64,000 nucleotides of DNA, from assembly GCA_000092065.1 (NCBI GenBank), contig CP000591.1; one strand, 5' to 3'. The stretch comes from Ostreococcus lucimarinus (taxonomy: Eukaryota). The position numbers and the translations under genes were made by a program. A model generated the notes under the pieces. That model saw nothing but the letters and a program-made list of their open reading frames with translations. It was not told where the DNA came from and did no database searches. This document shows, piece after piece, positions 3,001-17,740 of the stretch (positions are counted from its first letter, which is position 1; every line of letters begins with the position of its first letter).

Positions 3001-6000
3001 GCTGCGGAATTGAAGGCGCTTACCTCAGAATTGGCCTCCGTGAAAGAAGATCTTAAATACATCAGAGATATTGCAAAAGAAGAGCGTGATGAACAGATTC
3101 AGCGCATAGAATCTCTCATGTTAGAGGTTGATTCATTCGAAAACGCCAAATTTGATGGTGAAGAGGCAGTACGCTTTAGAAACGAAGCAGCGAAGCTTCG
3201 AGGGATGAAAATTCGGTTGGAAGCTGAGCTCAAGTTGAGTCAAGATCTCGCAGAGACAGCGAGCAGCGAACTGGCTCGAGCTCGCGAAGAGCACGATGTC
3301 GTCATCACGCAGTTGAGTGAAGAAATAGCAGCTCTTGAACTCGACATCACAGTTAAATCTGAAGCGATCGAAAAGTTGGAGTCAAAGACGAATAATATTG
3401 AGGTCAAGTTGGGCTCCGATCTTGAGAGCGCGTTAGCAAAACTGAACACCACGCTCGAAGAACTCGATAAAAAGTCCACGGATTTTGCATCTCTTGAAAG
3501 CGCATCGGTTGAACAAAAGCGAAACTTTGAGAAGCACGTGGACGAGCTTGAAAAGCGCCTGGGTGCTTCCGAGGCTGAAGTGCAAAGATTGATACAAGAT
3601 AGAGATCTGGCTATTGAGGCCAAAGACAACGAAATGGTTTCGAAAATTCTTTCGCAGTCCGCTATCGTGTCCGATCTCGAGTCTGAGCGCGACGCGCTGC
3701 GTTCGCAGCTCGCCGACCTTTCGTCCGCTCGCGACTCTGAGCTGGCGTCTGTGCGCGCGGATCTTGAGTCCCAGCTTCGCGAGCGCGAGGAGGACATCGA
3801 GCGCGTGCGTTCTGAGCTCGACGAGTCCAAGGCGGCACTTGAGTCTGAGCGCGACGCGCTGCAGTCGGAGCTCGAGCGCGTGCTTTCTCAGGTGCCCGAG
3901 GTTGACGCGTCGCAGTCCGCTATCGTGTCCGATCTCGAGTCTGAGCGCGACGCGCTGCGTTCGCAGCTCGCCGACCTTTCGTCCGCTCGCGACTCTGAGT
4001 TGGCGTCTGTGCGCGCGGATCTTGAGTCCCAGCTTCGCGAGCGCGAGGAGGACATCGAGCGCGTGCGTTCTGAGCTCGACGAGTCCAAGGCGGCACTTGA
4101 GTCTGAGCGCGACGCGCTGCAGTCGGAGCTCGAGCGCGTGCTTTCTCAGGTGCCCGAGGTTGACGCGTCGCAGTCCGCTGCCGTGTCCGATCTCGAGTCT
4201 GAGCGCGACGCGCTGCGTTCGCAGCTCGCCGACCTTTCGTCCGCTCGCGACTCTGAGTTGGCGTCTGTGCGCGCGGATCTTGAGTCCCAGCTTCGCGAGC
4301 GCGAGGAGGACATCGAGCGCGTGCGTTCTGAGCTCGACGAGTCCAAGGCGGCACTTGAGTCTGAGCGCGACGCGCTGCAGTCGGAGCTCGAGCGCGTGCT
4401 TTCTCAGGTGCCCGAGGTTGACGCGTCGCAGTCCGCTATCGTGTCCGATCTCGAGTCTGAGCGCGACGCGCTGCGTTCGCAGCTCGCCGACCTTTCGTCC
4501 GCTCGCGACTCTGAGTTGGCGTCTGTGCGCGCGGATCTTGAGTCCCAGCTTCGCGAGCGCGAGGAGGACATCGAGCGCGTGCGTTCTGAGCTCGACGAGT
4601 CCAAGGCGGCACTTGAGTCTGAGCGCGACGCGCTGCAGTCGGAGCTCGAGCGCGTGCTTTCTCAGGTGCCCGAGGTTGACGCGTCGCAGTCCGCTGCCGT
4701 GTCCGATCTCGAGTCTGAGCGCGACGCGCTGCGTTCGCAGCTCGCCGACCTTTCGTCCGCTCGCGACTCTGAGTTGGCGTCTGTGCGCGCGGATCTTGAG
4801 TCCCAGCTTCGCGAGCGCGAGGAGGACATCGAGCGCGTGCGTTCTGAGCTCGACGAGTCCAAGGCGGCACTTGAGTCTGAGCGCGACGCGCTGCAGTCGG
4901 AGCTCGAGCGCGTGCTTTCTCAGGTGCCCGAGGTTGACGCGTCGCAGTCCGCTATCGTGTCCGATCTCGAGTCTGAGCGCGACGCGCTGCGTTCGCAGCT
5001 CGCCGACCTTTCGTCCGCTCGCGACTCTGAGTTGGCGTCTGTGCGCGCGGATCTTGAGTCCCAGCTTCGCGAGCGCGAGGAGGACATCGAGCGCGTGCGT
5101 TCTGAGCTCGACGAGTCCAAGGCGGCACTTGAGTCTGAGCGCGACGCGCTGCAGTCGGAGCTCGAGCGCGTGCTTTCTCAGGTGCCCGAGGTTGACGCGT
5201 CGCAGTCCGCTGCCGTGTCCGATCTCGAGTCTGAGCGCGACGCGCTGCGTTCGCAGCTCGCCGACCTTTCGTCCGCTCGCGACTCTGAGTTGGCGTCTGT
5301 GCGCGCGGATCTTGAGTCCCAGCTTCGCGAGCGCGAGGAGGACATCGAGCGCGTGCGTTCTGAGCTCGACGAGTCCAAGGCGGCACTTGAGTCTGAGCGC
5401 GACGCGCTGCAGTCGGAGCTCGAGCGCGTGCTTTCTCAGGTGCCCGAGGTTGACGCGTCGCAGTCCGCTGCCGTGTCCGATCTCGAGTCTGAGCGCGACG
5501 CGCTGCGTTCGCAGCTCGCCGACCTTTCGTCCGCTCGCGACTCTGAGTTGGCGTCTGTGCGCGCGGATCTTGAGTCCCAGCTTCGCGAGCGCGAGGAGGA
5601 CATCGAGCGCGTGCGTTCTGAGCTCGACGAGTCCAAGGCGGCACTTGAGTCTGAGCGCGACGCGCTGCAGTCGGAGCTCGAGCGCGTGCTTTCTCAGGTG
5701 CCCGAGGTTGACGCGTCGCAGTCCGCTGCCGTGTCCGATCTCGAGTCTGAGCGCGACGCGCTGCGTTCGCAGCTCGCCGACCTTTCGTCCGCTCGCGACT
5801 CTGAGTTGGCGTCTGTGCGCGCGGATCTTGAGTCCCAGCTTCGCGAGCGCGAGGAGGACATCGAGCGCGTGCGTTCTGAGCTCGACGAGTCCAAGGCGGC
5901 ACTTGAGTCTGAGCGCGACGCGCTGCAGTCGGAGCTCGAGCGCGTGCTTTCTCAGGTGCCCGAGGTTGACGCGTCGCAGTCCGCTGCCATGTCCGATCTC

Positions 6001-9000
6001 GAGTCTGAGCGCGACGCGCTGCGTTCGCAGCTCTCTGAGCTTCGTCAAATGTCCTCCGAATCCATCGCAGGACTCCAGCAGCAATTAGTCGCATTTTCGG
6101 CGGAGGCGGACTCTGCGGCTTCCTTGAGAAAAACAGTTAAAGAGTTGAAGGCAACTATCAGACAGCGCGAAAATTTGCTTTCTGAAACGGTGTTCGATCC
6201 GATGTTGAATGATGACTTGGACCGTATGAACGATGAGCTTGCATCGAAGAGTGCGGAACTAGATTCTGCACGGACGAAGTTGCAGTCGACTCTTAATAAG
6301 TTAAAAGAACGCGAGGAGCAGGCTGAATCTTCGCAAGCTGTTGCAAGTGCTGTCATAGATGAGATCCGCGCCGAGCTTTTGAATGCAAACGAAAAGTTGG
6401 CTGCTCGTGAGTCATACGCCAACGCTGTTGAGTTGGCGCTGCGGTCAGAACTCACAGAAAGAGAGAAAGAAATTGCGCTTTTGCGTGTCAAGGTAGCTAA
6501 AATTCTCGATGACAGCACGAACAAGCAGACAAGTCTCACCACTGCGCTCGATTCTGCGCAGTCTGAGATTGAGCGCCTCACTCGCGAGCTCGAGGATGTT
6601 GAGCAGAGCAAGCAAGTGGCCATGAAGGAGTCATTTGAGCGCAACGAATCGCAGATTGCGTCTCTGAACGCCGCGCACCGCGAGTTGGATCAGCGCCTGC
6701 GAGACGAGCTCGACGCGGCGCTCAAAGCGAAGGCAAGTCTTGAGAAGGAGCTCAGCGACCGCGCGGAATCCACCGCTGCTACCGAAACAGCGAAGCGCAA
6801 CGCCGAAGCACTGAGCGAAAGCTTGCAATCGCAGCTTGATGCACTGTCCACGCAGCGTGCTGAGCTCGAGCAGCGGCTGGTCAAGCGCGAGGAGGAGCTC
6901 GTCGCTGAGCTTGACGCAGCCAAGCATGAAGCCACAGCGCAGGCCGCACGTTTTGCACAACTTGGCGAGGCGGCCTCAGATCACGCACACGACGAGGTTG
7001 ATAAACTTAAGTCCGAAGTGGAACGACTCGAGTTTGAGCTCGGCGCTGTGAAAAACGAGCTGACAAGCGCGACGTCGACTGCGAAAGCGGACATTGCGAG
7101 GCTTACGGATGAACTTGCAAGCGCCAGCGCCGCGCGAGACGCCGTGGCTGAAACCGCTCATCCAGAAGAAGACGGGTCATCGGAGTCCGCATCGGCGTTC
7201 GAAGCCATGAGACGCGACATGACTCGTCTCGAGTCGGAGCTTGCCGCCGCTCTCGCGGAGCTTGCGGAGCTCGAATCGCCTCGCGAGTCAGAGTCCTCAG
7301 ATACTGAAGCTATTCGCGAGTTCACCACTGCGCTCGATTCTGCGCAGTCTGAGATTGAGCGCCTCACTCGCGAGCTCGAGGATGTTGAGCAGAGCAAGCA
7401 AGTGGCCATGAAGGAGTCATTTGAGCGCAACGAATCGCAGATTGCGTCTCTGAACGCCGCGCACCGCGAGTTGGATCAGCGCCTGCGAGACGAGCTCGAC
7501 GCGGCGCTCAAAGCGAAGGCAAGTCTTGAGGAGCGCAGCGACCGCGCGGAATCCACCGCTGCTACCGAAACAGCGAAGCGCAACGCCGAAGCACTGAGCG
7601 AAAGCTTGCAATCGCAGCTTGATGCACTGTCCACGCAGCGTGCTGAGCTCGAGCAGCGGCTAGTCAAGCGCGAGGAGGAGCTCGTCGCTGAGCTTGACGC
7701 AGCCAAGCATGAAGCCACAGCGCAGGCCGCACGTTTTGCACAACTTGGCGAGGCGGCCTCAGATCACGCACACGACGAGGTTGATAAACTTAAGTCCGAA
7801 GTGGAACGACTCGAGTTTGAGCTCGGCGCTGTGAAAAACGAGCTGACAAGCGCGACGTCGACTGCGAAAGCGGACATTGCGAGGCTTACGGATGAACTTG
7901 CAAGCGCCAGCGCCGCGCGAGACGCCGTGGCTGAAACCGCTCATCCAGAAGAAGACGGGTCATCGGAGTCCGCATCGGCGTTCGAAGCCATGAGACGCGA
8001 CATGACTCGTCTCGAGTCGGAGCTTGCCGCCGCTCTCGCGGAGCTTGCGGAGCTCGAATCGCCTCGCGAGTCAGAGTCCTCAGATACTGAAGCTATTCGC
8101 GAGTTCACCACTGCGCTCGATTCTGCGCAGTCTGAGATTGAGCGCCTCACTCGCGAGCTCGAGGATGTTGAGCAGAGCAAGCAAGTGGCCATGAAGGAGT
8201 CATTTGAGCGCAACGAATCGCAGATTGCGTCTCTGAACGCCGCGCACCGCGAGTTGGATCAGCGCCTGCGAGACGAGCTCGACGCGGCGCTCAAAGCGAA
8301 GGCAAGTCTTGAGAAGGAGCGCAGCGACCGCGCGGAATCCACCGCTGCTACCGAAACAGCGAAGCGCAACGCCGAAGCACTGAGCGAAAGCTTGCAATCG
8401 CAGCTTGATGCACTGTCCACGCAGCGTGCTGAGCTCGAGCAGCGGCTAGTCAAGCGCGAGGAGGAGCTCGTCGCTGAGCTTGACGCAGCCAAGCATGAAG
8501 CCACAGCGCAGGCCGCACGTTTTGCACAACTTGGCGAGGCGGCCTCAGATCACGCACACGACGAGGTTGATAAACTTAAGTCCGAAGTGGAACGACTCGA
8601 GTTTGAGCTCGGCGCTGTGAAAAACGAGCTGACAAGCGCGACGTCGACTGCGAAAGCGGACATTGCGAGGCTTACGGATGAACTTGCAAGCGCCAGCGCC
8701 GCGCGAGACGCCGTGGCTGAAACCGCTCATCCAGAAGAAGACGGGTCATCGGAGTCTGCATCGGCGTTCGAAGCCATGAGACGCGACATGACTCGTCTCG
8801 AGTCGGAGCTTGCCGCCGCTCTCGCGGAGCTTGCGGAGCTCGAATCGCCTCGCGAGTCAGAGTCCTCAGATACTGAAGCTATTCGCGAGTTCACCACTGC
8901 GCTCGATTCTGCGCAGTCTGAGATTGAGCGCCTCACTCGCGAGCTCGAGGATGTTGAGCAGAGCAAGCAAGTGGCCATGAAGGAGTCATTTGAGCGCAAC

Positions 9001-10632
9001 GAATCGCAGATTGCGTCTCTGAACGCCGCGCACCGCGAGTTGGATCAGCGCCTGCGAGACGAGCTCGACGCGGCGCTCAAAGCGAAGGCAAGTCTTGAGA
9101 AGGAGCTCAGCGACCGCGCGGAATCCACCGCTGCTACCGAAATAGCGAAGCGCAACGCCGAAGCACTGAGCGAAAGCTTGCAATCGCAGCTTGATGCTTC
9201 TCGCGCTGAAGAGGCGAAGCTCCGTGATGAGCTCAATCATTTTCAGGAGCTTGCACGAGAGGAGATTTCAGCACTCCATAATGAAATTACCGAAATAAAA
9301 TTCACGTCGCAAGAAAGTCAAGCGTCGCTTGGAGAATCACCGTGGCCGAGTATCACAATTTCCACCCTTGCGGGTCTTAACGAGATGATGTCTCGGGGAT
9401 CTGAATTCGGGAGTGAAGGCTTAGATTGGCTTGAGCACGCCGCACACGAAGTACAAGCGCTTGAAAAGTCCGTGTTGGATGCGACGGCTGAGCTCGAGTT
9501 ACGAGAGAATGAATATGAACAAACTATTGCACAGTTGCAAGATAGTGTTCGTGACGCGGAAACTGACCTCAACTCGCAGAAGAGTCTGGCTAGCGCAGCT
9601 TTGAGCGACGTCGAGCATCTGAATGATAAATTGGCCGAACGCGATGAGGAGCTGGCATCACTCCGGCTCGAACTCGCGAACTTGGTTTCAGATGACGTCA
9701 CACGCGAGCTTGAATTAACGATCAGTAATTTGAGGATACAGCTGACCGCAAAAGATAACGAGTTGAATGGAGCTGTCGCGTCGTTGAATGATTTGGAAAA
9801 CGACAAGAGAGCTATAGAAGAAGCAATGTCCGAACTACAAGCTGCAGCTGACATGCAAGCAGCTCGAGTGCAAACATCGATTGAGCAAATATCAAGTTTG
9901 AATGTTGAGCTGGCCAAGCGCTCTGCAGCTCTTGATGCTAGTTGGGATAATCTTTCTCACGCTGAATCACGCGCACGTTTTGCCGAGCAAGAGCGAGACG
10001 ACGTTCGCCGGCTTTTTGAGGAGCGACTTGCTGTGAAAGAGCGAGCACTACGCGAGACACAAGGAGATGTTGAACATCTTCGTCAGACGGTGCGTAATCT
10101 TCAGGATAAATTGAAAGCACATAGATATGCACGTTCTGAGACCGAAGCTGGTCATCCAGAAGAAGACGGGTCATCGGAGTCTGCATCGGCGTTCGAAGCC
10201 ATGAGACGCGACATGACTCGTCTCGAGTCGGAGCTTGCCGCCGCTCTCGCGGAGCTTGCGGAGCTCGAATCGCCTCGCGAGTCAGAGTCCTCAGATACTG
10301 AAGCTATTCGCGAGTTCACCACTGCGCTCGATTCTGCGCAGTCTGAGATTGAGCGCCTCACTCGCGAGCTCGAGGATGTTGAGCAGAGCAAGCAAGTGGC
10401 CATGAAGGAGTCATTTGAGCGCAACGAATCGCAGATTGCGTCTCTGAACGCCGCGCACCGCGAGTTGGATCAGCGCCTGCGAGACGAGCTCGACGCGGCG
10501 CTCAAAGCGAAGGCAAGTCTTGAGAAGGAGCTCAGCGACCGCGCGGAATCCACCGCTGCTACCGAAACAGCGAAGCGCAACGCCGAAGCACTGAGCGAAA
10601 GCTTGCAATCGCAGCTTGATGGAAAAACTTGA
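1..10632 (+). CDS. Giant coiled-coil repeat protein, 5' portion. The frame-1 ORF is open from the window edge, so the gene is truncated at its 5' end. It carries N-terminal hydrophobic segments and long heptad-rich repeats, and ends at a 1-nt frame break that probably joins it to the 10619..17740 ORF.
   Basis: There is no stop in frame 1 from nt 1. The start at 25 in the ORF track is a GTG, so the ORF continues upstream. Translation is E/L/R/A/S/Q-rich with heptad periodicity, as expected for coiled coil. It contains the 258-bp and about 783-bp in-frame tandem repeat arrays. The same repeat units continue in frame in the downstream ORF. Confidence 0.8.
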   Translation, partial: AAAIGSSSVIFGTALALKVIPRPMMQVLAILLASTVAPLLGVYVEELRLHRTSTRRTRLMILSDCSLYGSWDAVAGTVAWACAFNQSADAFGPALAQSSFVAFIVAAACRWMRAMYVLYVIDHWIIQTVAAMSQEFTETVSRATVVVMEEVSRAPIVVKETVSRVSVAIAETVTQTPDVVSHNDESPQPVAEPKMHERSDNNEAAVASVKMRVAREPQPVVMESAPSSDAAPVAGESVSVTQQPDERRIEYAPPYTAVIREQDPRPEPPRVVYAPAFVVVEEASTSSSTESDVTQPLESKRRRRQRKRQYRRRESLAKNTIDMSEIVSKEVNIALNMGVSIEAELQRMLDRRQSTLNDMKNQQANPISIAQVEADIAALRAELRRATTSREQFQRAQTSYESDLEMWMESIRAAAAVSRLDYAIDSLKNASVADDPQVKELIDQRAVWGLRLVSSQIFTIVELQDSLDSGEARSSARIAELRGAIESLELKLTRLQEEKTQSVDNRILLEDRLQKLNLEIDSVRERERVAQEDWQRERLRLEVELEASVKELQTATRTVDDALKAKLELLAKLQTAQDQSDTDAEAIRRLEHETETLQTKLKSLTEQLSVANASVEQINSRRFDLESQLRAKATELDLANANRADTSLVEELRRQVKNLSTEICWLRDQKSREGSEAEAVLQKQLAEARTQLEIQRNELEIEAKAEISELKRSMDVIREEMERLTSEMSEKTEKSLEYQRIVQERQKEIESLTKNKELAARAIDESKKNLAQAQEALETKQKALDDRVSQVASLSLDLAASEEKTLTLERELSASCQRSQELEELISSLRSYSESRDALLADIDLLLGNENDEREAMLRGSKNASDLVERIQKRLRREVVLEKKLDQAQLLEQVGLTVEELKTREAASLWWKDLVQIGSKALETIQSTAVDLSKGTVTASLLERSISLRAKELQNITSEPQYQRLQKSFNDLKRLSEAAERKLQEKERKIKSLKADSKESAAELKALTSELASVKEDLKYIRDIAKEERDEQIQRIESLMLEVDSFENAKFDGEEAVRFRNEAAKLRGMKIRLEAELKLSQDLAETASSELARAREEHDVVITQLSEEIAALELDITVKSEAIEKLESKTNNIEVKLGSDLESALAKLNTTLEELDKKSTDFASLESASVEQKRNFEKHVDELEKRLGASEAEVQRLIQDRDLAIEAKDNEMVSKILSQSAIVSDLESERDALRSQLADLSSARDSELASVRADLESQLREREEDIERVRSELDESKAALESERDALQSELERVLSQVPEVDASQSAIVSDLESERDALRSQLADLSSARDSELASVRADLESQLREREEDIERVRSELDESKAALESERDALQSELERVLSQVPEVDASQSAAVSDLESERDALRSQLADLSSARDSELASVRADLESQLREREEDIERVRSELDESKAALESERDALQSELERVLSQVPEVDASQSAIVSDLESERDALRSQLADLSSARDSELASVRADLESQLREREEDIERVRSELDESKAALESERDALQSELERVLSQVPEVDASQSAAVSDLESERDALRSQLADLSSARDSELASVRADLESQLREREEDIERVRSELDESKAALESERDALQSELERVLSQVPEVDASQSAIVSDLESERDALRSQLADLSSARDSELASVRADLESQLREREEDIERVRSELDESKAALESERDALQSELERVLSQVPEVDASQSAAVSDLESERDALRSQLADLSSARDSELASVRADLESQLREREEDIERVRSELDESKAALESERDALQSELERVLSQVPEVDASQSAAVSDLESERDALRSQLADLSSARDSELASVRADLESQLREREEDIERVRSELDESKAALESERDALQSELERVLSQVPEVDASQSAAVSDLESERDALRSQLADLSSARDSELASVRADLESQLREREEDIERVRSELDESKAALESERDALQSELERVLSQVPEVDASQSAAMSDLESERDALRSQLSELRQMSSESIAGLQQQLVAFSAEADSAASLRKTVKELKATIRQRENLLSETVFDPMLNDDLDRMNDELASKSAELDSARTKLQSTLNKLKEREEQAESSQAVASAVIDEIRAELLNANEKLAARESYANAVELALRSELTEREKEIALLRVKVAKILDDSTNKQTSLTTALDSAQSEIERLTRELEDVEQSKQVAMKESFERNESQIASLNAAHRELDQRLRDELDAALKAKASLEKELSDRAESTAATETAKRNAEALSESLQSQLDALSTQRAELEQRLVKREEELVAELDAAKHEATAQAARFAQLGEAASDHAHDEVDKLKSEVERLEFELGAVKNELTSATSTAKADIARLTDELASASAARDAVAETAHPEEDGSSESASAFEAMRRDMTRLESELAAALAELAELESPRESESSDTEAIREFTTALDSAQSEIERLTRELEDVEQSKQVAMKESFERNESQIASLNAAHRELDQRLRDELDAALKAKASLEERSDRAESTAATETAKRNAEALSESLQSQLDALSTQRAELEQRLVKREEELVAELDAAKHEATAQAARFAQLGEAASDHAHDEVDKLKSEVERLEFELGAVKNELTSATSTAKADIARLTDELASASAARDAVAETAHPEEDGSSESASAFEAMRRDMTRLESELAAALAELAELESPRESESSDTEAIREFTTALDSAQSEIERLTRELEDVEQSKQVAMKESFERNESQIASLNAAHRELDQRLRDELDAALKAKASLEKERSDRAESTAATETAKRNAEALSESLQSQLDALSTQRAELEQRLVKREEELVAELDAAKHEATAQAARFAQLGEAASDHAHDEVDKLKSEVERLEFELGAVKNELTSATSTAKADIARLTDELASASAARDAVAETAHPEEDGSSESASAFEAMRRDMTRLESELAAALAELAELESPRESESSDTEAIREFTTALDSAQSEIERLTRELEDVEQSKQVAMKESFERNESQIASLNAAHRELDQRLRDELDAALKAKASLEKELSDRAESTAATEIAKRNAEALSESLQSQLDASRAEEAKLRDELNHFQELAREEISALHNEITEIKFTSQESQASLGESPWPSITISTLAGLNEMMSRGSEFGSEGLDWLEHAAHEVQALEKSVLDATAELELRENEYEQTIAQLQDSVRDAETDLNSQKSLASAALSDVEHLNDKLAERDEELASLRLELANLVSDDVTRELELTISNLRIQLTAKDNELNGAVASLNDLENDKRAIEEAMSELQAAADMQAARVQTSIEQISSLNVELAKRSAALDASWDNLSHAESRARFAEQERDDVRRLFEERLAVKERALRETQGDVEHLRQTVRNLQDKLKAHRYARSETEAGHPEEDGSSESASAFEAMRRDMTRLESELAAALAELAELESPRESESSDTEAIREFTTALDSAQSEIERLTRELEDVEQSKQVAMKESFERNESQIASLNAAHRELDQRLRDELDAALKAKASLEKELSDRAESTAATETAKRNAEALSESLQSQLDGKT
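408..545 (+). repeat. Imperfect 33-39 bp coding mini-repeats encoding E(T/E)VSRA.(V/I)VV, about 4 units
   Basis: Direct reading shows acagagacggtgtcgcgagcgaccgttgtcgtt / gaagtttcgcgagcgccgatcgtcgtt / acagtttcgcgagtttctgtcgcgatt. Translation shows ETVSRATVVV / EEVSRAPIVV / ETVSRVSVAI. Confidence 0.5.
3652..6033 (+). repeat. Tandem array of about 9.2 copies of a 258-bp (86-aa) in-frame coding repeat, here called repeat A. Copies are more than 99% identical.
   Basis: The period of 258 nt was read directly; for example tccgct(a/g)(t/c)cgtgtccgatctcgagtctgagcgcgacgcgctgcg recurs at 3659, 3917, 4175, 4433 and so on. Each unit encodes SQSA(I/A)VSDLESERDALRSQLADLSSARDSELASVRADLESQLREREEDIERVRSELDESKAALESERDALQSELERVLSQVPEVDA. 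Copies differ only by an atc/gcc (I/A) codon, and the last copy has A->M. Confidence 0.9.
6538..9190 (+). repeat. Tandem array of about 3.4 copies of a 783-786 bp (261/262-aa) in-frame coding repeat, here called repeat B
   Basis: Unit starts (accactgcgctcgattctgcgcagtctgagattgagcgc) lie at about 6538, 7324, 8107 and 8893. Copies are near-identical apart from an in-frame 3-nt indel (KELSDR versus EERSDR/KERSDR) and T/I substitutions. The array ends where the sequence diverges after cagcttgatgc at about 9190. Confidence 0.85.
10150..10619 (+). repeat. Partial copy of repeat B (about 470 bp, the 3' 60% of a unit), separated from the main B array by about 960 bp of unique coding sequence
   Basis: catccagaagaagacgggtcatcggagtc ... 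gcttgcaatcgcagcttgatg is nearly identical to 7157-7626, 7940-8409 and 8723-9192. Confidence 0.8.
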
Positions 10633-13600
10633 GTCATTGCGCCGTGAGCACGAAACAAAACTGAACGACATGCGTGAGTCTGCAACACAACAACGCGCGG
10701 ATCTTGAGTCCCAGCTTCGCGAGCGCGAGGAGGACATCGAGCGCGTGCGTTCTGAGCTCGACGAGTCCAAGGCGGCACTTGAGTCTGAGCGCGACGCGCT
10801 GCAGTCGGAGCTCGAGCGCGTGCTTTCTCAGGTGTCTGAGTCTGAGTCTCTGCAGTCCGCTGCCGTGTCCGATCTCGAGTCTGAGCGCGACGCGCTGCGT
10901 TCGCAGCTCGCCGACCTTTCGTCCGCTCGCGACTCTGAGTTGGCGTCTGTGCGCGCGGATCTTGAGTCCCAGCTTCGCGAGCGCGAGGAGGACATCGAGC
11001 GCGTGCGTTCTGAGCTCGACGAGTCCAAGGCGGCACTTGAGTCTGAGCGCGACGCGCTGCAGTCGGAGCTCGAGCGCGTGCTTTCTCAGGTGTCTGAGTC
11101 TGAGTCTCTGCAGTCCGCTGCCGTGTCCGATCTCGAGTCTGAGCGCGACGCGCTGCGTTCGCAGCTCGCCGACCTTTCGTCCGCTCGCGACTCTGAGTTG
11201 GCGTCTGTGCGCGCGGATCTTGAGTCCCAGCTTCGCGAGCGCGAGGAGGACATCGAGCGCGTGCGTTCTGAGCTCGACGAGTCCAAGGCGGCACTTGAGT
11301 CTGAGCGCGACGCGCTGCAGTCGGAGCTCGAGCGCGTGCTTTCTCAGGTGTCTGAGTCTGAGTCTCTGCAGTCCGCTGCCGTGTCCGATCTCGAGTCTGA
11401 GCGCGACGCGCTGCGTTCGCAGCTCGCCGACCTTTCGTCCGCTCGCGACTCTGAGTTGGCGTCTGTGCGCGCGGATCTTGAGTCCCAGCTTCGCGAGCGC
11501 GAGGAGGACATCGAGCGCGTGCGTTCTGAGCTCGACGAGTCCAAGGCGGCACTTGAGTCTGAGCGCGACGCGCTGCAGTCGGAGCTCGAGCGCGTGCTTT
11601 CTCAGGTGTCTGAGTCTGAGTCTCTGCAGTCCGCTGCCGTGTCCGATCTCGAGTCTGAGCGCGACGCGCTGCGTTCGCAGCTCGCCGACCTTTCGTCCGC
11701 TCGCGACTCTGAGTTGGCGTCTGTGCGCGCGGATCTTGAGTCCCAGCTTCGCGAGCGCGAGGACGACATCGAGCGCGTGCGTTCTGAGCTCGACGAGTCC
11801 AAGGCGGCACTTGAGTCTGAGCGCGACGCGCTGCAGTCGGAGCTCGAGCGCGTGCTTTCTCAGGTGCCCGAGGTTGACGCGTCGCAGTCCGCTGCCGTGT
11901 CCGATCTCGAGTCTGAGCGCGACGCGCTGCGTTCGCAGCTCGCCGACCTTTCGTCCGCTCGCGACTCTGAGTTGGCGTCTGTGCGCGCGGATCTTGAGTC
12001 CCAGCTTCGCGAGCGCGAGGAGGACATCGAGCGCGTGCGTTCTGAGCTCGACGAGTCCAAGGCGGCACTTGAGTCTGAGCGCGACGCGCTGCAGTCGGAG
12101 CTCGAGCGCGTGCTTTCTCAGGTGCCCGAGGTTGACGCGTCGCAGTCCGCTGCCGTGTCCGATCTCGAGTCTGAGCGCGACGCGCTGCGTTCGCAGCTCG
12201 CCGACCTTTCGTCCGCTCGCGACTCTGAGTTGGCGTCTGTGCGCGCGGATCTTGAGTCCCAGCTTCGCGAGCGCGAGGAGGACATCGAGCGCGTGCGTTC
12301 TGAGCTCGACGAGTCCAAGGCGGCACTTGAGTCTGAGCGCGACGCGCTGCAGTCGGAGCTCGAGCGCGTGCTTTCTCAGGTGCCCGAGGTTGACGCGTCG
12401 CAGTCCGCTGCCGTGTCCGATCTCGAGTCTGAGCGCGACGCGCTGCGTTCGCAGCTCGCCGACCTTTCGTCCGCTCGCGACTCTGAGTTGGCGTCTGTGC
12501 GCGCGGATCTTGAGTCCCAGCTTCGCGAGCGCGAGGAGGACATCGAGCGCGTGCGTTCTGAGCTCGACGAGTCCAAGGCGGCACTTGAGTCTGAGCGCGA
12601 CGCGCTGCAGTCGGAGCTCGAGCGCGTGCTTTCTCAGGTGCCCGAGGTTGACGCGTCGCAGTCCGCTGCCGTGTCCGATCTCGAGTCTGAGCGCGACGCG
12701 CTGCGTTCGCAGCTCGCCGACCTTTCGTCCGCTCGCGACTCTGAGTTGGCGTCTGTGCGCGCGGATCTTGAGTCCCAGCTTCGCGAGCGCGAGGAGGACA
12801 TCGAGCGCGTGCGTTCTGAGCTCGACGAGTCCAAGGCGGCACTTGAGTCTGAGCGCGACGCGCTGCAGTCGGAGCTCGAGCGCGTGCTGGGAGAGTTGAG
12901 TCAGTCGACTTCGGCGCTTCGGCGCGTTGAGGAGGATCTCAATGCCGCTTTAAGCGACCGCGATGAGTTCGAAGAAGAGAGTGATCGTTTGCGTCGGCGT
13001 CTACCACGACTTGAACGAGAGCATAACGAGTTGGAGGATGCAATGCGCTTGGAAATGGACGAATTGGCTTCAAAGCTTGCAGCGATGTCAAAAGCGCGCG
13101 ATGATCTCGAGAAGGACATGATTGAGCAGAGTGATGGTCTGTACAAGGCACTTGGCAGTAGCCGCGAGGATCTGCAGCGAGAACTAAACGAGGGCAAGAA
13201 GTTACTTGCTCAACGTGAGGCCGAGCTAAAGCGTTTAACTGCCGATTTTTCGTTGAAAGAGCACGCAATTGAGTCTGAGCGAGAAGCACTTGCGACCGAA
13301 TTGGATCGACTGATACACAAGGTGCCAGCCTTGGAGTTGACTACGGCTGAACTAGAGGCTGAACGCGCGGAGTTGCGCGAAAAGCTTGATGATTTGATAG
13401 CAAATCGTGATCAGCTGGCGGCCAATCTGCGAACCGAGAACGATTCGATGTCAGCAGAACTGTCCATGACTCGAGAAGCTCTTGATGAACAATTCAATGC
13501 CGTTACAACACAGCTCCTTGAAACCGATGAGATCATCGACAAGATGCGCAAGGATAACGAAGCTGCAAAGGAAGCAGCAGAGAACGACCGCTTAGCGCTA

Positions 13601-16600
13601 CAAGGTGAGCTTGAGCGCGTGGTGTCGGAATCAAATAAGCTGCGGGCAGCTCAAGCCACGGCCGAGTCTCTTCTACGCGCAGAGCGTGATGATCTCGAAG
13701 ACAAGGTCGAAAAACTTGAGTCATTGCGCCGTGAGCACGAAACAAAACTGAACGACATGCGTGAGTCTGCAACACAACAACGCGCGGATCTTGAGTCCCA
13801 GCTTCGCGAGCGCGAGGAGGACATCGAGCGCGTGCGTTCTGAGCTCGACGAGTCCAAGGCGGCACTTGAGTCTGAGCGCGACGCGCTGCAGTCGGAGCTC
13901 GAGCGCGTGCTTTCTCAGGTGTCTGAGTCTGAGTCTCTGCAGTCCGCTGCCGTGTCCGATCTCGAGTCTGAGCGCGACGCGCTGCGTTCGCAGCTCGCCG
14001 ACCTTTCGTCCGCTCGCGACTCTGAGTTGGCGTCTGTGCGCGCGGATCTTGAGTCCCAGCTTCGCGAGCGCGAGGAGGACATCGAGCGCGTGCGTTCTGA
14101 GCTCGACGAGTCCAAGGCGGCACTTGAGTCTGAGCGCGACGCGCTGCAGTCGGAGCTCGAGCGCGTGCTTTCTCAGGTGCCCGAGGTTGACGCGTCGCAG
14201 TCCGCTGCCGTGTCCGATCTCGAGTCTGAGCGCGACGCGCTGCGTTCGCAGCTCGCCGACCTTTCGTCCGCTCGCGACTCTGAGTTGGCGTCTGTGCGCG
14301 CGGATCTTGAGTCCCAGCTTCGCGAGCGCGAGGAGGACATCGAGCGCGTGCGTTCTGAGCTCGACGAGTCCAAGGCGGCACTTGAGTCTGAGCGCGACGC
14401 GCTGCAGTCGGAGCTCGAGCGCGTGCTGGGAGAGTTGAGTCAGTCGACTTCGGCGCTTCGGCGCGTTGAGGAGGATCTCAATGCCGCTTTAAGCGACCGC
14501 GATGAGTTCGAAGAAGAGAGTGATCGTTTGCGTCGGCGTCTACCACGACTTGAACGAGAGCATAACGAGTTGGAGGATGCAATGCGCTTGGAAATGGACG
14601 AATTGGCTTCAAAGCTTGCAGCGATGTCAAAAGCGCGCGATGATCTCGAGAAGGACATGATTGAGCAGAGTGATGGTCTGTACAAGGCACTTGGCAGTAG
14701 CCGCGAGGATCTGCAGCGAGAACTAAACGAGGGCAAGAAGTTACTTGCTCAACGTGAGGCCGAGCTAAAGCGTTTAACTGCCGATTTTTCGTTGAAAGAG
14801 CACGCACTTGAGTCTGAGCGAGAAGCACTTGCGACCGAATTGGATCGACTGATACACAAGGTGCCAGCCTTGGAGTTGACTGCGGCTGAACTAGAGGCTG
14901 AACGCGCGGAGTTGCGCGAAAAGCTTGATGATTTGATAGCAAATCGTGATCAGCTGGCGGCCAATCTGCGAACCGAGAACGATTCGATGTCAGCAGAACT
15001 GTCCATGACTCGAGAAGCTCTTGATGAACAATTCAATGCCGTTACAACACAGCTCCTTGAAACCGATGAGATCATCGACAAGATGCGCAAGGATAACGAA
15101 GCTGCAAAGGAAGCAGCAGAGAACGACCGCTTAGCGCTACAAGGTGAGCTTGAGCGCGTGGTGTCGGAATCAAATAAGCTGCGGGCAGCTCAAGCCACGG
15201 CCGAGTCTCTTCTACGCGCAGAGCGTGATGATCTCGAAGACAAGGTCGAAAAACTTGAGTCATTGCGCCGTGAGCACGAAACAAAACTGAACGACGTGCG
15301 TGAGTCTGCAACACAACAACGCGCGGATCTTGAGTCCCAGCTTCGCGAGCGCGAGGAGGACATCGAGCGCGTGCGTTCTGAGCTCGACGAGTCCAAGGCG
15401 GCACTTGAGTCTGAGCGCGACGCGCTGCAGTCGGAGCTCGAGCGCGTGCTTTCTCAGGTGTCTGAGTCTGAGTCTCTGCAGTCCGCTGCCGTGTCCGATC
15501 TCGAGTCTGAGCGCGACGCGCTGCGTTCGCAGCTCGCCGACCTTTCGTCCGCTCGCGACTCTGAGTTGGCGTCTGTGCGCGCGGATCTTGAGTCCCAGCT
15601 TCGCGAGCGCGAGGAGGACATCGAGCGCGTGCGTTCTGAGCTCGACGAGTCCAAGGCGGCACTTGAGTCTGAGCGCGACGCGCTGCAGTCGGAGCTCGAG
15701 CGCGTGCTTTCTCAGGTGTCTGAGTCTGAGTCTCTGCAGTCCGCTGCCGTGTCCGATCTCGAGTCTGAGCGCGACGCGCTGCGTTCGCAGCTCGCCGACC
15801 TTTCGTCCGCTCGCGACTCTGAGTTGGCGTCTGTGCGCGCGGATCTTGAGTCCCAGCTTCGCGAGCGCGAGGAGGACATCGAGCGCGTGCGTTCTGAGCT
15901 CGACGAGTCCAAGGCGGCACTTGAGTCTGAGCGCGACGCGCTGCAGTCGGAGCTCGAGCGCGTCATGGACGACGTTCTGAACGCAGAAGCGCTTGCGGAG
16001 CAAGCTGAGCTTATACGCTCGCAGATGCAGGCGGACATGGAGCAACTTGTTGAAGCGCGACAAAGTGTTGAGCAGCGTTTGCAGGATGTGGACAGTGCTC
16101 TTCAGATTTCTTTGAACAAGGTTGCCACGCTTGAGATTGAGCAAGAAAGATTGCGACTCGAACTCTCCGCTTCCGAGAAAGCCTTAGCCGAAAGTGAACG
16201 TGCTAGGTCAGAATCAGACGCAGAAATTCTGGCGCTTAGCGACGAGCTGTCGGACGCTTTGAATGCACGGTTACTTATTGAGCAACGACTTCGTGCGCGC
16301 GACGAGGAACTGGAGACCGCGCGCATCAAACAATCTGAATTAATTACGGAGAATTCAAAGCTCCGAGCTGAACTCATGGATGCCAAAGCAATGGCAGACG
16401 ATTACACTCGGCAGTTGTCTTCAGGGCTATTCGGCGATGAAAAGCGTGTCGAGGCTGGAATTCAACGATTTGACTCTTTCGAGGCGTCGGACACTGGTAT
16501 ATTTGCCACAGACGAAGCAGACGAAGCTTTCGTGACCGCCTGCAATATGGTGCAACGAATTGAAATCTTAGTTCGTCGACAAAAGCAAACGGGCGAAGAA

Positions 16601-17740
16601 TTAAAGCGACTAGATGACACTGGCGCGGCTGAATCAGACGATGCGCGCTTATTGCGCTCCGAGCTCGCCGCTATGGGTTCTCAACTCGACTCGTGCAGAG
16701 AAACTCTCGCTGCGTGCTCGCACGGTCTCAGCGTGCTTGAATCGCGCATGGCCGAAGAATTCGCGGCGATGGGCAAGTCGCCAATGTTCGCAGAAGGCAT
16801 GGACACTACTCGCAGTCGCGTACGCGATCTAGAAAAGTCACTCGCGGCGGCGAATGCCCAGTCCGACGTCACCTTCAAGAATCTGCAAATCGCGCTCGAC
16901 GCATCGACGATGGATGTCGGAAGGGATATTCCTGTCGAGTTTAAAATCCCGTTTCAATCAATCCCAGGACAACGTATTTTAGTCGTTGGTACTTGGTGCG
17001 ATTGGATCACTCAAAACGGCTTGCAGTTGACGTGGACCGAGGGGAACATATGGAAAGGCACGATGACACTGCACACAGGCTCAAATTACGAGTACAAGTA
17101 CGTCGTTGTGGAGGAAGTCCTCGGCGGAGTGCCTGGGGAAGCACCGCCGTACTTTCCGCCCTGGGGCACAACCGAGCCAAAGATTGAGCAGATGTTCGAC
17201 GGACGGGCGTACATGCTCGTCTGGCAGCCAGGAAACAACAAGGCGATGGCGCTCGACAACATTCACACGGATGGCGTCGCGCAAATTAAAGTTTCAGACG
17301 ACTGGATCGCCAATCCCAAGAAATCACCGATCACACTCTTCGCCGCGGATGGAGAAGTGCTTGAGATCGTCGGCTCGACGGCACTGCTCGGTGAAACGGT
17401 CGATCGCGCCGATCACGCCCTCGCCGAGGCTCGAAAGCAAGTCCAAATGATGGCCGACTTGGCGAGCGCCGCGTTGGCTGAAGTCGATACCCAGCTCGCG
17501 AGACGAATCGCCACGCAACTGGACGATATTCGTCACAAAGGAACTTTGTCTACCGACAGCGACGGTAAGCATCACCGTGGAACAAAGGCGCTTCCCTCGA
17601 GCGTTGAGGCCGGCTCGCCAAGGTCTAATCTTAACTGGATGAATATTGGATTCGGGTTGGAAGCCCAAGACGATGGCGAAGATTCAACATCGGCTTCGAC
17701 TGACGCGGAAGACGCCGGCGATGGCATCGACTACGCGTAA
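10619..17740 (+). CDS. Giant coiled-coil repeat protein, 3' portion. It contains more repeat-A arrays, two 1539-bp higher-order repeats, unique coiled-coil sequence and a C-terminal CBM20-like starch-binding domain. It is probably the same gene as 1..10632.
   Basis: The ORF is in frame 2 to a TAA at 17738-17740. Its first codons (gaaaaacttgagtcattgcgccgtgagcacgaa) are homologous to 13710-13745 and 15249-15284, which are internal to the repeat. The C-terminus has a CBM20-like motif. Convergent 3' ends follow. Confidence 0.8.
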   Translation: MEKLESLRREHETKLNDMRESATQQRADLESQLREREEDIERVRSELDESKAALESERDALQSELERVLSQVSESESLQSAAVSDLESERDALRSQLADLSSARDSELASVRADLESQLREREEDIERVRSELDESKAALESERDALQSELERVLSQVSESESLQSAAVSDLESERDALRSQLADLSSARDSELASVRADLESQLREREEDIERVRSELDESKAALESERDALQSELERVLSQVSESESLQSAAVSDLESERDALRSQLADLSSARDSELASVRADLESQLREREEDIERVRSELDESKAALESERDALQSELERVLSQVSESESLQSAAVSDLESERDALRSQLADLSSARDSELASVRADLESQLREREDDIERVRSELDESKAALESERDALQSELERVLSQVPEVDASQSAAVSDLESERDALRSQLADLSSARDSELASVRADLESQLREREEDIERVRSELDESKAALESERDALQSELERVLSQVPEVDASQSAAVSDLESERDALRSQLADLSSARDSELASVRADLESQLREREEDIERVRSELDESKAALESERDALQSELERVLSQVPEVDASQSAAVSDLESERDALRSQLADLSSARDSELASVRADLESQLREREEDIERVRSELDESKAALESERDALQSELERVLSQVPEVDASQSAAVSDLESERDALRSQLADLSSARDSELASVRADLESQLREREEDIERVRSELDESKAALESERDALQSELERVLGELSQSTSALRRVEEDLNAALSDRDEFEEESDRLRRRLPRLEREHNELEDAMRLEMDELASKLAAMSKARDDLEKDMIEQSDGLYKALGSSREDLQRELNEGKKLLAQREAELKRLTADFSLKEHAIESEREALATELDRLIHKVPALELTTAELEAERAELREKLDDLIANRDQLAANLRTENDSMSAELSMTREALDEQFNAVTTQLLETDEIIDKMRKDNEAAKEAAENDRLALQGELERVVSESNKLRAAQATAESLLRAERDDLEDKVEKLESLRREHETKLNDMRESATQQRADLESQLREREEDIERVRSELDESKAALESERDALQSELERVLSQVSESESLQSAAVSDLESERDALRSQLADLSSARDSELASVRADLESQLREREEDIERVRSELDESKAALESERDALQSELERVLSQVPEVDASQSAAVSDLESERDALRSQLADLSSARDSELASVRADLESQLREREEDIERVRSELDESKAALESERDALQSELERVLGELSQSTSALRRVEEDLNAALSDRDEFEEESDRLRRRLPRLEREHNELEDAMRLEMDELASKLAAMSKARDDLEKDMIEQSDGLYKALGSSREDLQRELNEGKKLLAQREAELKRLTADFSLKEHALESEREALATELDRLIHKVPALELTAAELEAERAELREKLDDLIANRDQLAANLRTENDSMSAELSMTREALDEQFNAVTTQLLETDEIIDKMRKDNEAAKEAAENDRLALQGELERVVSESNKLRAAQATAESLLRAERDDLEDKVEKLESLRREHETKLNDVRESATQQRADLESQLREREEDIERVRSELDESKAALESERDALQSELERVLSQVSESESLQSAAVSDLESERDALRSQLADLSSARDSELASVRADLESQLREREEDIERVRSELDESKAALESERDALQSELERVLSQVSESESLQSAAVSDLESERDALRSQLADLSSARDSELASVRADLESQLREREEDIERVRSELDESKAALESERDALQSELERVMDDVLNAEALAEQAELIRSQMQADMEQLVEARQSVEQRLQDVDSALQISLNKVATLEIEQERLRLELSASEKALAESERARSESDAEILALSDELSDALNARLLIEQRLRARDEELETARIKQSELITENSKLRAELMDAKAMADDYTRQLSSGLFGDEKRVEAGIQRFDSFEASDTGIFATDEADEAFVTACNMVQRIEILVRRQKQTGEELKRLDDTGAAESDDARLLRSELAAMGSQLDSCRETLAACSHGLSVLESRMAEEFAAMGKSPMFAEGMDTTRSRVRDLEKSLAAANAQSDVTFKNLQIALDASTMDVGRDIPVEFKIPFQSIPGQRILVVGTWCDWITQNGLQLTWTEGNIWKGTMTLHTGSNYEYKYVVVEEVLGGVPGEAPPYFPPWGTTEPKIEQMFDGRAYMLVWQPGNNKAMALDNIHTDGVAQIKVSDDWIANPKKSPITLFAADGEVLEIVGSTALLGETVDRADHALAEARKQVQMMADLASAALAEVDTQLARRIATQLDDIRHKGTLSTDSDGKHHRGTKALPSSVEAGSPRSNLNWMNIGFGLEAQDDGEDSTSASTDAEDAGDGIDYA
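10690..12886 (+). repeat. Second repeat-A array, about 8.5 copies of the 258-bp unit: four copies of a SQVSESESLQSAAVSD variant followed by four or five copies of the SQVPEVDASQSAAVSD variant
   Basis: The same 258-bp period is present. Variant-specific tgtctgagtctgagtctctgcag appears at 10833, 11091, 11349 and 11607. The gtgcccgaggttgacgcgtcgcag variant appears at 11865, 12123, 12381 and 12639. One copy has a gaggacgac (E->D) change at about 11761. Confidence 0.9.
12887..15963 (+). repeat. Two tandem copies of a 1539-bp (513-aa) higher-order coding repeat, here called repeat C. Each copy is about 900 bp of unique coiled-coil sequence plus 2.5 repeat-A units.
   Basis: ctgggagagttgagtcagtcgacttcggcgcttcggcgcgttgaggag occurs at 12887 and 14426, a spacing of 1539. 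The copies differ by only a few substitutions (T/A, I/L, M/V). A partial third copy (the 3' end of the unique part plus a repeat-A array) begins at 10620. Confidence 0.9.
16927..17250 (+). other. CBM20-like (CBM20/48-superfamily) starch- or glucan-binding domain at the C-terminus of the giant coiled-coil protein
   Basis: Translation reads IPVEFKIPFQSIPGQRILVVGTWCDWITQNGLQLTWTEGNIWKGTMTLHTGSNYEYKYVVVEE. It carries the conserved CBM20 pattern V.F.....GQ.v.vvG....W......L.W....W...l.l..g...EYKyv. Confidence 0.6.

What the first reader, a model, noticed from the sequence alone, without database searches (positions are those of the whole stretch)
12887..15963. 1539-bp higher-order repeat: a unit that itself contains a short tandem array
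Two near-identical 1539-bp units (12887-14425 and 14426-15963) each consist of about 900 bp of unique coiled-coil sequence plus 2.5 copies of the 258-bp repeat. The 3' 70 bp of the unique part plus an expanded 8.5-copy A array form a partial third unit starting at 10620. Three-level nesting in a protein-coding gene is unusual: 258 bp within 1539 bp within the gene. It implies repeated rounds of tandem duplication at different scales.
Basis: seen in the sequence. Interest (0 to 1): 0.55.

Follow-up and report, generated by a model that had tools for sequence, protein, structure and literature searches.

The report
Nested repeats in giant algal gene
Two almost identical 1.5-kb blocks, each holding its own short repeat array, lie inside a giant helical starch-binding protein gene of the tiny marine alga Ostreococcus lucimarinus; block number differs between wild strains, so the pattern is real and dynamic, but it belongs to a known kind of repeat.

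Summary
Window 12887-14425 and 14426-15963 differ at 12 of 1538 bases. Each unit is an 892-bp unique segment (C) plus 2.5 copies of a 258-bp repeat (A). A 72-bp C-tail plus 8.5 A copies at 10622-12888 is a truncated third unit.

The window is Ostreococcus lucimarinus CCE9901. The repeats lie in a gene of more than 17.7 kb encoding hydrophobic N-terminal segments, about 5,000 residues of alpha-helical rod and a C-terminal CBM20 starch-binding domain.

Independent large contigs from near-identical wild strains reproduce the two units, one of them at 4853 of 4854 bases. Across assemblies there are 1, 2, 3 or at least 4 C units, carrying 1.5 to 6.5 A copies each. A sister species has a 2517-bp unit of the same design. 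The A-to-C and C-to-A junctions are identical in the window-lineage assemblies read. This fits unequal recombination between the A arrays that flank each C.

New caveat: in this sequence the reading frame breaks at 10621|10622, the start of the partial unit. Two relatives carry one long open frame. The break is either a reference-specific lesion or an assembly error.

Composite coding repeats are already known, for example in Balbiani ring genes. Interest is moderate.

The parts
1..3651 (+). N-terminal unique part of the giant gene. The window starts about 327 nt inside it. Hydrophobic, transmembrane-like segments fall at about nt 1-141 and 268-363.
   Evidence: Frame-1 ORF. L026 and L008 extend upstream. 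Kyte-Doolittle segments. dN/dS 0.29 against the ~93% clade.
3652..6046 (+). A array 1: 9.3 copies of the 258-bp (86-aa) repeat, all P-type. AIV and AAV haplotypes alternate through the first six copies.
6047..10151 (+). Module U2 (6047-6531), B array (6532-9197, 3.4 x 786 bp) and D (9198-10151). It is present in the reference and in clades L027 and L028, and absent in strain L026.
   Evidence: dN/dS 0.23-0.26.
10152..10621 (+). Copy of the last 470 bp of the B array (partial 1425-bp duplication). It ends at the out-of-frame junction.
10622..10693 (+). C-tail: the last 72 bp of a C segment, a remnant of a truncated third unit. The frame-1 stop TGA lies at 10630-10632 and an ATG in frame 2 at 10619.
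10694..12888 (+). A array 2: 8.5 copies, haplotype order S S S S P P P P plus a half copy.
12889..13780 (+). C copy 1: 892-bp unique helical segment.
13781..14427 (+). A array 3: S, P, half copy.
14428..15319 (+). C copy 2. It differs from copy 1 at 3 sites.
15320..15963 (+). A array 4: S, S, half copy.
15964..17740 (+). C-terminal unique region with the CBM20 starch-binding domain (Pfam match about 16928-17116; beta-sandwich about 16925-17374), a conserved helix and an acidic tail. Stop codon at 17738-17740.

Best explanation
The finding is a genuine composite tandem repeat in the coding sequence of a giant protein of Ostreococcus lucimarinus. The protein has N-terminal hydrophobic, transmembrane-like segments, about 5,000 residues of alpha-helical (coiled-coil-like) rod and a C-terminal CBM20 starch-binding domain.

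DNA level. Each 892-bp C segment is embedded between arrays of virtually identical 258-bp A repeats. C always enters at A position 131 and exits at A position 1, and 131+892 = 1023 bp is in frame. Unequal homologous recombination between the A arrays on either side of a C therefore duplicates or deletes whole [C + n.5 A] cassettes. Slippage or unequal exchange inside an array changes n. Gene conversion keeps the copies alike. The 1539-bp period is just the n = 2 case, fixed in the last two cassettes of this lineage. This mechanism is inferred from the anatomy and the strain comparison.

Protein level (inferred). Each A adds 86 residues of helix, about 13 nm if extended, and each 1539-bp cassette adds 513 residues, about 76 nm. 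Cassette copy number thus sets the length of a rod that probably links a membrane to the starch granule.
For: Reality and coordinates.

Organism: the 395-aa neighbour is an exact match to XP_001420240.1 of O. lucimarinus CCE9901.

Independent assemblies of near-identical strains show these 3' architectures:
- L021: ...A|C A6.5|C A2.5|C A2.5|Cterm, gene call of 5509 aa, open through the 9.2 kb read.
- L019: at least 4 C units, ORF of at least 4988 aa.
- L020: 2 C units.
- L026: N-term|A16.9|C A3.5|C A3.5|Cterm.
- L028: a single C unit.

The junction phase is identical in all of these.

Diagnostic sites (column 870 A against G, column 456) separate the last and second-last C copies in the same way in the reference, L020 and L021. 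L019 shares the column-870 split only. So the duplication predates the strain divergence. The two L026 copies share strain-specific variants, which indicates homogenisation.

The sister-species contig L007 has about 3 copies of a 2517-bp unit, made of a 917-bp C-like segment plus 5.1 x 315 bp. That unit aligns to the window unit at 48% amino-acid identity, E = 3e-117, while copies within each species are 98-99% identical.

Coding evidence: all periods are multiples of 3, and dN/dS is 0.23-0.29 in unique parts against a ~93% clade.

The unit is predicted 97% helical, with breaks at KVPALE and at the P-type QVPEVDAS. Hydrophobic periodicity is 3.55 residues.

CBM20: Pfam 28.9 bits against a cutoff of 23.3. 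Foldseek best hits are CBM20 domains of GDE5, STBD1 and glucoamylase, E down to 4e-6. W, W and K aligned with the glucoamylase starch-binding domain are invariant in the family.
Against: In the reference sequence itself the frame is broken at 10621|10622, so here the cassettes are not contiguous with the N-terminal 3,650 residues.

No RNA, protein or localisation data were available.

Plastid targeting, membrane anchoring and starch tethering are inferred from domain content only.

No recombination event was observed directly. Repeated independent duplications could give similar patterns.

The 11 variable sites among C copies are mostly non-synonymous (8 of 11), so constraint on the exact sequence is weak.

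Some comparison contigs carry indel noise (L020, L026, L028, L007).
Confidence: 0.8

Rival explanations
1. The frame break at 10621|10622 is an error of the reference assembly, such as a mis-join or collapsed clone in a region of 100%-identical repeats. Under this reading the real CCE9901 gene is one ORF of about 5,500-6,000 codons, and the cassettes are translated as part of it.
For: L021 (5509-aa gene call) and L019 (at least 4988 aa) are open through the 9.2 kb read, and L021 is identical to the window at 4853 of 4854 bases downstream.

The junction joins a B repeat to a C-tail with no homology and shifts the frame by +1.

In L028 the B/D module continues through a unique segment E into an A array, and in L027 it continues into E before the contig ends; E is missing from the window.

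Short-read assemblers demonstrably mis-join this gene.
Against: The reference is a finished genome (my own knowledge, not tested). A mis-join normally follows shared sequence, and none is present at the junction. No read data could be examined. The exact junction could not be searched informatively.
Confidence: 0.45
2. The frame break is real in strain CCE9901. A deletion from inside a B repeat to 72 bp before the end of a C segment left a truncated allele. The protein would stop after about 3,650 residues and lack the cassettes and CBM20. The 1539-bp units would then be untranslated relics in this strain, or be expressed only from the internal ATG at 10619.
For: Sequence as given. Relatives show large structural differences in this gene, for example loss of the whole U2-B-D module in L026, so big rearrangements do occur. 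There is no GT dinucleotide in the 110 nt before the stop, and only poor intron candidates exist.
Against: The downstream 7.1 kb keeps a perfect open frame and is base-identical to intact wild alleles, so any lesion must be very recent. Purifying selection acts on the gene elsewhere.
Confidence: 0.35
3. The two units are an assembly artefact: one unit written twice.
For: Near-identity and flanking perfect repeats are the classic setting for such errors.
Against: Four independent assemblies contain at least 2 units with the same copy-specific variants. A short-read contig links the unit-2 variants to the unique C-terminus.
Confidence: 0.03
4. One reading: the 258-bp array formed first, then a fixed 1539-bp block was duplicated in tandem in discrete rounds, with no special role for the flanking arrays.
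For: Two units of exactly equal length in the reference, L019 and L021. Copy-specific variants are shared across strains.
Against: Unit length is not fixed across strains (1281, 1539, 1797 and 2571 bp, with n = 1.5 to 6.5). Unit number varies from 1 to at least 4. The L026 copies are homogenised. These point to continuing exchange, not a few discrete rounds.
Confidence: 0.15

Closest known systems
Balbiani ring (BR1/BR2) secretory protein genes of Chironomus
   Same: Giant coding genes built of tandem units, each made of a non-repeating (constant) part plus an internal sub-repeat array. See the titles of Case & Byers 1983 and Jaeckle et al. 1982, listed.
   Different: BR units are about 200-300 bp and occur in a hundred or more copies (my own knowledge). 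Here the units are 1.3-2.6 kb in 1-4 copies, the product is an intracellular helical rod rather than a secreted silk-like protein, and there is no sequence relation.
Higher-order repeats of centromeric alpha satellite
   Same: A long period superimposed on a short one, with long units about 99% alike, maintained by unequal exchange.
   Different: In satellite higher-order repeats the monomers within a unit are diverged (my own knowledge). Here the A monomers are as alike as the units (97-100%), and the unit also contains 892 bp that is not made of A. This repeat is coding.
SAGA1 / SAGA2 (Chlamydomonas): CBM20 plus long helical region, localising starch to the pyrenoid
   Same: A green-algal protein combining CBM20 with a long coiled-coil-like region. 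The CBM20 domains of SAGA1 and SAGA2 bind starch and maltoheptaose (PMC13167743).
   Different: The SAGA proteins carry Rubisco-binding motifs and are restricted to Volvocales. No convincing W[RK]xx[LIVAM] motif occurs here. This protein has hydrophobic N-terminal segments and a C-terminal CBM20. Homology beyond CBM20 was not tested.
STBD1 (mammalian starch-binding domain protein 1)
   Same: The CBM20 fold match is among the best (8x8k, target TM-score 0.80). The overall logic of an N-terminal hydrophobic anchor plus a C-terminal CBM20 tethering a polyglucan to a membrane is the same (anchor and function from my own knowledge).
   Different: STBD1 is small, about 360 aa, with no giant repetitive rod. 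It is an animal glycogen protein. Only the CBM20 is comparable.
MFP1 + PTST2 (Arabidopsis starch granule initiation)
   Same: A thylakoid-bound coiled-coil protein (MFP1) and a coiled-coil CBM protein (PTST2) together position starch granules (summarised in PMC13167743). The Ostreococcus protein unites anchor, rod and CBM in one chain.
   Different: PTST2 has CBM48 rather than CBM20 (my own knowledge). No sequence homology was tested. The two are far smaller and not repetitive.

Membership tests
Composite (hierarchical) coding tandem repeat | At least two head-to-tail copies of a long unit | tested here: met
   12887-14425 and 14426-15963, 99.2% identical, plus a truncated third copy at 10622.
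Composite (hierarchical) coding tandem repeat | Each long unit contains a non-repeating part and an internal short tandem array | tested here: met
   892-bp C plus 2.5 x 258-bp A.
Composite (hierarchical) coding tandem repeat | All periods keep the reading frame and the sequence is translated | tested here: inconclusive
   258, 1023 and 1539 are multiples of 3. The ORF is intact across the 9.2 kb of L019 and L021 that was read, with gene calls of 4988+ and 5509 aa. In the window the frame is broken upstream at 10621|10622, and no expression data exist.
Satellite-type higher-order repeat (alpha-satellite sense) | Monomers within a unit are diverged while whole units are near-identical | tested here: not met
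   A copies within and between units are 97-100% identical.
CBM20 starch-binding domain (Pfam PF00686) | Score above Pfam's gathering threshold | tested here: met
   28.9 bits against 23.3, E = 9.9e-7. Precomputed PF00686 on homologues.
CBM20 starch-binding domain (Pfam PF00686) | Beta-sandwich fold matching solved CBM20 structures | tested here: met
   Foldseek top hits 2z0b, 8x8k, 2vn4 and 1kul, probability 1.00. The model's pLDDT is 74-89 over most of the domain's strands, lower in its inter-strand loop.
CBM20 starch-binding domain (Pfam PF00686) | Conserved aromatic and lysine ligand-binding residues | tested here: met
   W102, W118, K133 and W175 of the 346-aa query are invariant in 10 homologues. 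The first three align to the glucoamylase starch-binding domain. Assignment to binding sites 1 and 2 is from my own knowledge.
CBM20 starch-binding domain (Pfam PF00686) | Actual binding of starch or malto-oligosaccharide | not testable with these tools
   Needs a binding assay.
SAGA1/SAGA2 family | Rubisco-binding motif copies | tested here: not met
   Only two generic W[RK]xx[LIVAM] matches, one of them inside the CBM20.
SAGA1/SAGA2 family | Sequence homology outside the CBM20; taxonomic range Volvocales | not tested
The paper states the family is confined to Volvocales.
Coiled-coil rod protein | Long uninterrupted alpha-helices with about 3.5-residue hydrophobic periodicity | tested here: met
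   Helices 2-144, 153-429 and 439-512 of the 513-aa unit. Periodicity peak at 3.55 residues. Oligomeric state was not tested.
Membrane-anchored tether (STBD1-like logic) | Transmembrane anchor at the end opposite the CBM | tested here: inconclusive
   Several 19-residue windows with Kyte-Doolittle above 1.5 in the first ~230 residues. No dedicated TM or transit-peptide predictor was run.

The most novel reading that the evidence does not exclude
The gene encodes a plastid membrane-to-starch tether or ruler found only in Mamiellales. Its rod length, about 0.65-0.9 micrometre if fully extended, is comparable with the diameter of the cell. That length is tuned in nature by gain and loss of [C + A-array] cassettes, so wild Ostreococcus strains differ by hundreds of residues. 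The Micromonas-like homologue is only about 1,000 aa. Cassette number would then affect the positioning, size or partition of the single starch granule. The reference strain CCE9901 may be a natural truncation mutant.
Probability: 0.15. Interest if true: 0.7.

Novelty: new member of a known kind. Interest (0 to 1): 0.45.

Why it matters
The repeat shows that even one of the most compact eukaryotic genomes keeps a gene of more than 16 kb whose length changes between closely related wild strains by whole 1.3-2.6-kb cassettes.

It has a practical consequence. Short-read metagenome assemblies collapse this gene into plausible but false in-frame proteins of about 2,000 aa, and these now sit in protein catalogues.

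It flags a possible error or a natural truncation in the O. lucimarinus reference sequence.

It points to an uncharacterised family with the layout anchor + rod + CBM20. This family is a reasonable candidate for organising the single starch granule of these algae.

Tried and rejected
(1) I scanned JGI metagenome contigs for the frame-breaking junction, allowing 0-3 extra bases. It gave 0 hits. A control 35-mer from the unique D segment also gave 0 hits, so the collection does not cover this region and the negative result is uninformative.

(2) A protein search with D plus the B-tail gave 0 hits. Yet P0093/L027 contains D. The database holds only cluster representatives, so this null is also uninformative.

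(3) Exact look-ups of ORF2 (ATG or TTG start) and of the 395-aa neighbour in the gene-position index were not on record. The first cluster look-up used wrong minus-strand coordinates.

The 5' part of the 5509-aa allele therefore stays unseen.

(5) Intron rescue of the frame break: only 3 GT dinucleotides lie in the 190 nt before the stop, and the frame-compatible donors lie inside sequence that is coding in the other B copies. I judged this unlikely but could not exclude it.

(6) Pfam hits to FBF1, OpcA, Baculo_PEP_C, Tektin, Rootletin and Myosin_tail are treated as compositional coiled-coil or repeat matches, not homology.

(7) ORFs on the minus strand and in other frames across the arrays are by-products of GC-rich repeats. 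The frame-2 reading is the one conserved across species.

(8) No U2, B, D or E-like sequence occurs elsewhere in the window or in the other loci.


Full report
**Observation.**
Window 12887-14425 and 14426-15963 differ at 12 of 1538 aligned bases. Three differences are isolated substitutions in the unique part, all non-synonymous: I/L, T/A and M/V. Nine sit within 17 bp and are a swap between two haplotypes of the short repeat, P-type QVPEVDAS and S-type QVSESESL.

Tandem Repeats Finder reports 258-bp arrays at 10694-12888 (8.5 copies), 13781-14427 (2.5) and 15320-15963 (2.5). Self-BLAST gives a single HSP at offset 1539, from 12242-14424 to 13781-15963. It also shows that 10622-10693 equals the last 72 bp of the unique segment. 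I call the 892-bp unique segment C and the 258-bp repeat A.

**Context.**
The window is eukaryotic. It encodes PRP8, glycogen phosphorylase and a kinesin with MyTH4 and FERM domains. The 395-aa ORF next to the repeat gene is an exact match to XP_001420240.1 of Ostreococcus lucimarinus CCE9901.

The repeats belong to a gene that starts about 327 nt before the window and ends at 17740. Its layout is as follows:
- an N-terminal unique part with hydrophobic segments (1-3651)
- A array 1 (3652-6046, 9.3 copies)
- unique segment U2
- a 786-bp B array (6532-9197)
- unique segment D
- a 470-bp B-tail copy (10152-10621)
- the C-tail and A array 2
- two C+A units
- a unique C-terminus

The C-terminus has a CBM20 starch-binding domain. 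Pfam scores it above threshold. The predicted fold matches solved CBM20 domains of GDE5, STBD1 and glucoamylase. The ligand-contact W, W and K are conserved in the family. One 513-aa unit is predicted as three long helices, broken at KVPALE and at the P-type QVPEVDAS. Its hydrophobic periodicity is 3.55 residues.

The frame-1 ORF stops at TGA 10630-10632. The repeats are read in frame 2, with a TTG at 10616 and an ATG at 10619. The shift happens at 10621|10622. There a B repeat (CAG CTT GAT G) is joined to the C-tail (GAA AAA CTT), with no shared bases and a +1 phase. So the 'partial third unit' begins at a frame-breaking junction.

**Independent assemblies.**
Short-read metagenome contigs stop at, or collapse, the arrays. 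Five large contigs resolve them, and a sixth (L027) ends before reaching them:
- L021 (JGI 3300047157, 620 kb)...A|C A6.5|C A2.5|C A2.5|C-terminus, within a gene call of 5509 aa. The 9.2 kb read is open. Its last 4854 bases differ from the window at one base.
- L019: at least four C units, with 1.5, 6.5, 2.5 and 2.5 A copies, in an ORF open for at least 4988 aa.
- L020: two C units, with indels.
- L026 (N-terminus 99.86% identical): N-terminus|A16.9|C A3.5|C A3.5|C-terminus. It lacks U2-B-D altogether.
- L028: ...B|D|B|E|A13.7|C A3.5|C-terminus, with a single C.
- L027 (~93% clade): N-terminus|A9.3|U2|B|D|B-tail|E, then the contig ends.

In each of these assemblies that reaches a C, C is entered after A position 131 and followed by A position 1. 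The sum 131+892 = 1023 is in frame.

Copy-specific sites distinguish the last from the second-last C. Column 870 does so identically in the reference, L019, L020 and L021, and column 456 in all of these except L019. The two L026 copies share strain-specific variants.

**Sister species.**
Contig L007 is 84% identical to the window in PRP8 DNA and syntenic with it. It has about three copies of a 2517-bp unit. Each unit is a 917-bp C-like segment plus 5.1 copies of a 315-bp repeat, itself 153+162 bp. The unit aligns to the window unit over C and the array at 48% amino-acid identity, E = 3e-117. Copies within each species are 98-99% identical.

The design is therefore old. The copies are either young or continually homogenised.

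**Mechanism.**
The steps shown are these: the arrays flank every C, the junction phase is constant, and n and unit number vary between strains. Also shown are positional orthology of the last two units in one lineage and homogenisation in another.

From this I infer unequal homologous recombination between flanking A arrays, which adds or removes [C + n.5 A] cassettes. I also infer intra-array exchange, which changes n, and gene conversion. The absence of U2-B-D in L026, which instead has one long all-P-type array of a length similar to arrays 1 and 2 combined (4361 against 4590 bp), fits the same process acting between arrays 1 and 2.

At protein level, each cassette lengthens a helical rod that sits between hydrophobic N-terminal segments and a starch-binding domain. 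A Micromonas-like homologue of 997 aa has the same ends without the expansions. A role as a membrane-to-starch tether is inference only.

**The frame break.**
Relatives with the B/D module continue after the B-tail through a unique segment E into an A array. E is absent from the window. The reference junction therefore looks like a deletion from B into a C unit. I could not decide between a real lesion in CCE9901 and a finishing error. The searches that might have settled it were uninformative. Intron rescue is unlikely.

**Comparison and verdict.**
Units built of a non-repeating part plus a sub-repeating part are classic in Balbiani ring genes. The pattern is not a satellite-type higher-order repeat, because the A monomers are as similar as the units. 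Functionally, the nearest known proteins are those that combine a CBM with a coiled coil, or a CBM with a membrane anchor: SAGA1/2, PTST2 with MFP1, and STBD1. Membership in those families is not supported or was not tested.

Literature searches found no description of this gene. I rate it a new member of a known kind, real and well supported, of moderate interest.

Noticed in passing
window 10621-10632: The reading frame of the giant gene breaks at a B-repeat|C-tail junction with no microhomology, and the frame-1 stop follows at 10630-10632. L021 (gene call 5509 aa) and L019 (ORF at least 4988 aa) are open through the 9.2 kb read.
   Followed up: partly
window 6047-10621: A 4.6-kb in-frame module (U2, 786-bp B array, D, B-tail) is absent from strain L026, which is 99.86% identical in the N-terminus. 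It is present in clades L027 and L028, where it continues into a segment E that the window lacks. dN/dS is about 0.23-0.26.
   Followed up: partly
window 3652-6046: A array 1: its first six copies alternate between two haplotypes (AIV and AAV), giving a 516-bp dimer pattern.
   Followed up: no
window 19188-19253 (in ORF 18579-19766): A 24-bp coding tandem repeat (2.8 copies). Metagenome contigs carry 395-aa and 387-aa versions of this protein, a difference of exactly one unit.
   Followed up: partly
L008, L009, L010, L012; proteins P0072, P0078, P0080, P0087, P0090: Short-read metagenome assemblies collapse the giant gene into false in-frame ORFs of 1994-2421 aa, or into scaffolds with N gaps. 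These artefacts sit in protein catalogues as cluster representatives.
   Followed up: yes
L028:4635-9832 compared with window: A and C copies are 99.3-100% identical to the reference, while the neighbouring unique parts (D 94%, C-terminus 97.5%) are diverged. The repeats appear more conserved, or more exchanged, across clades than the unique sequence. Contig noise was not excluded.
   Followed up: no
window 37451-41965 (-): A 1504-aa ORF combines a Metallophos nuclease-like domain with AAA_23, SMC_N and SbcC Walker B domains. It looks like an SbcD/Mre11-like plus SbcC/Rad50-like fusion.
   Followed up: no
L007:9400-9900: The sister-species long contig has dense indel noise in the last C-like segment, splitting the gene into two called ORFs. 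This is probably failed polishing inside repeats.
   Followed up: partly
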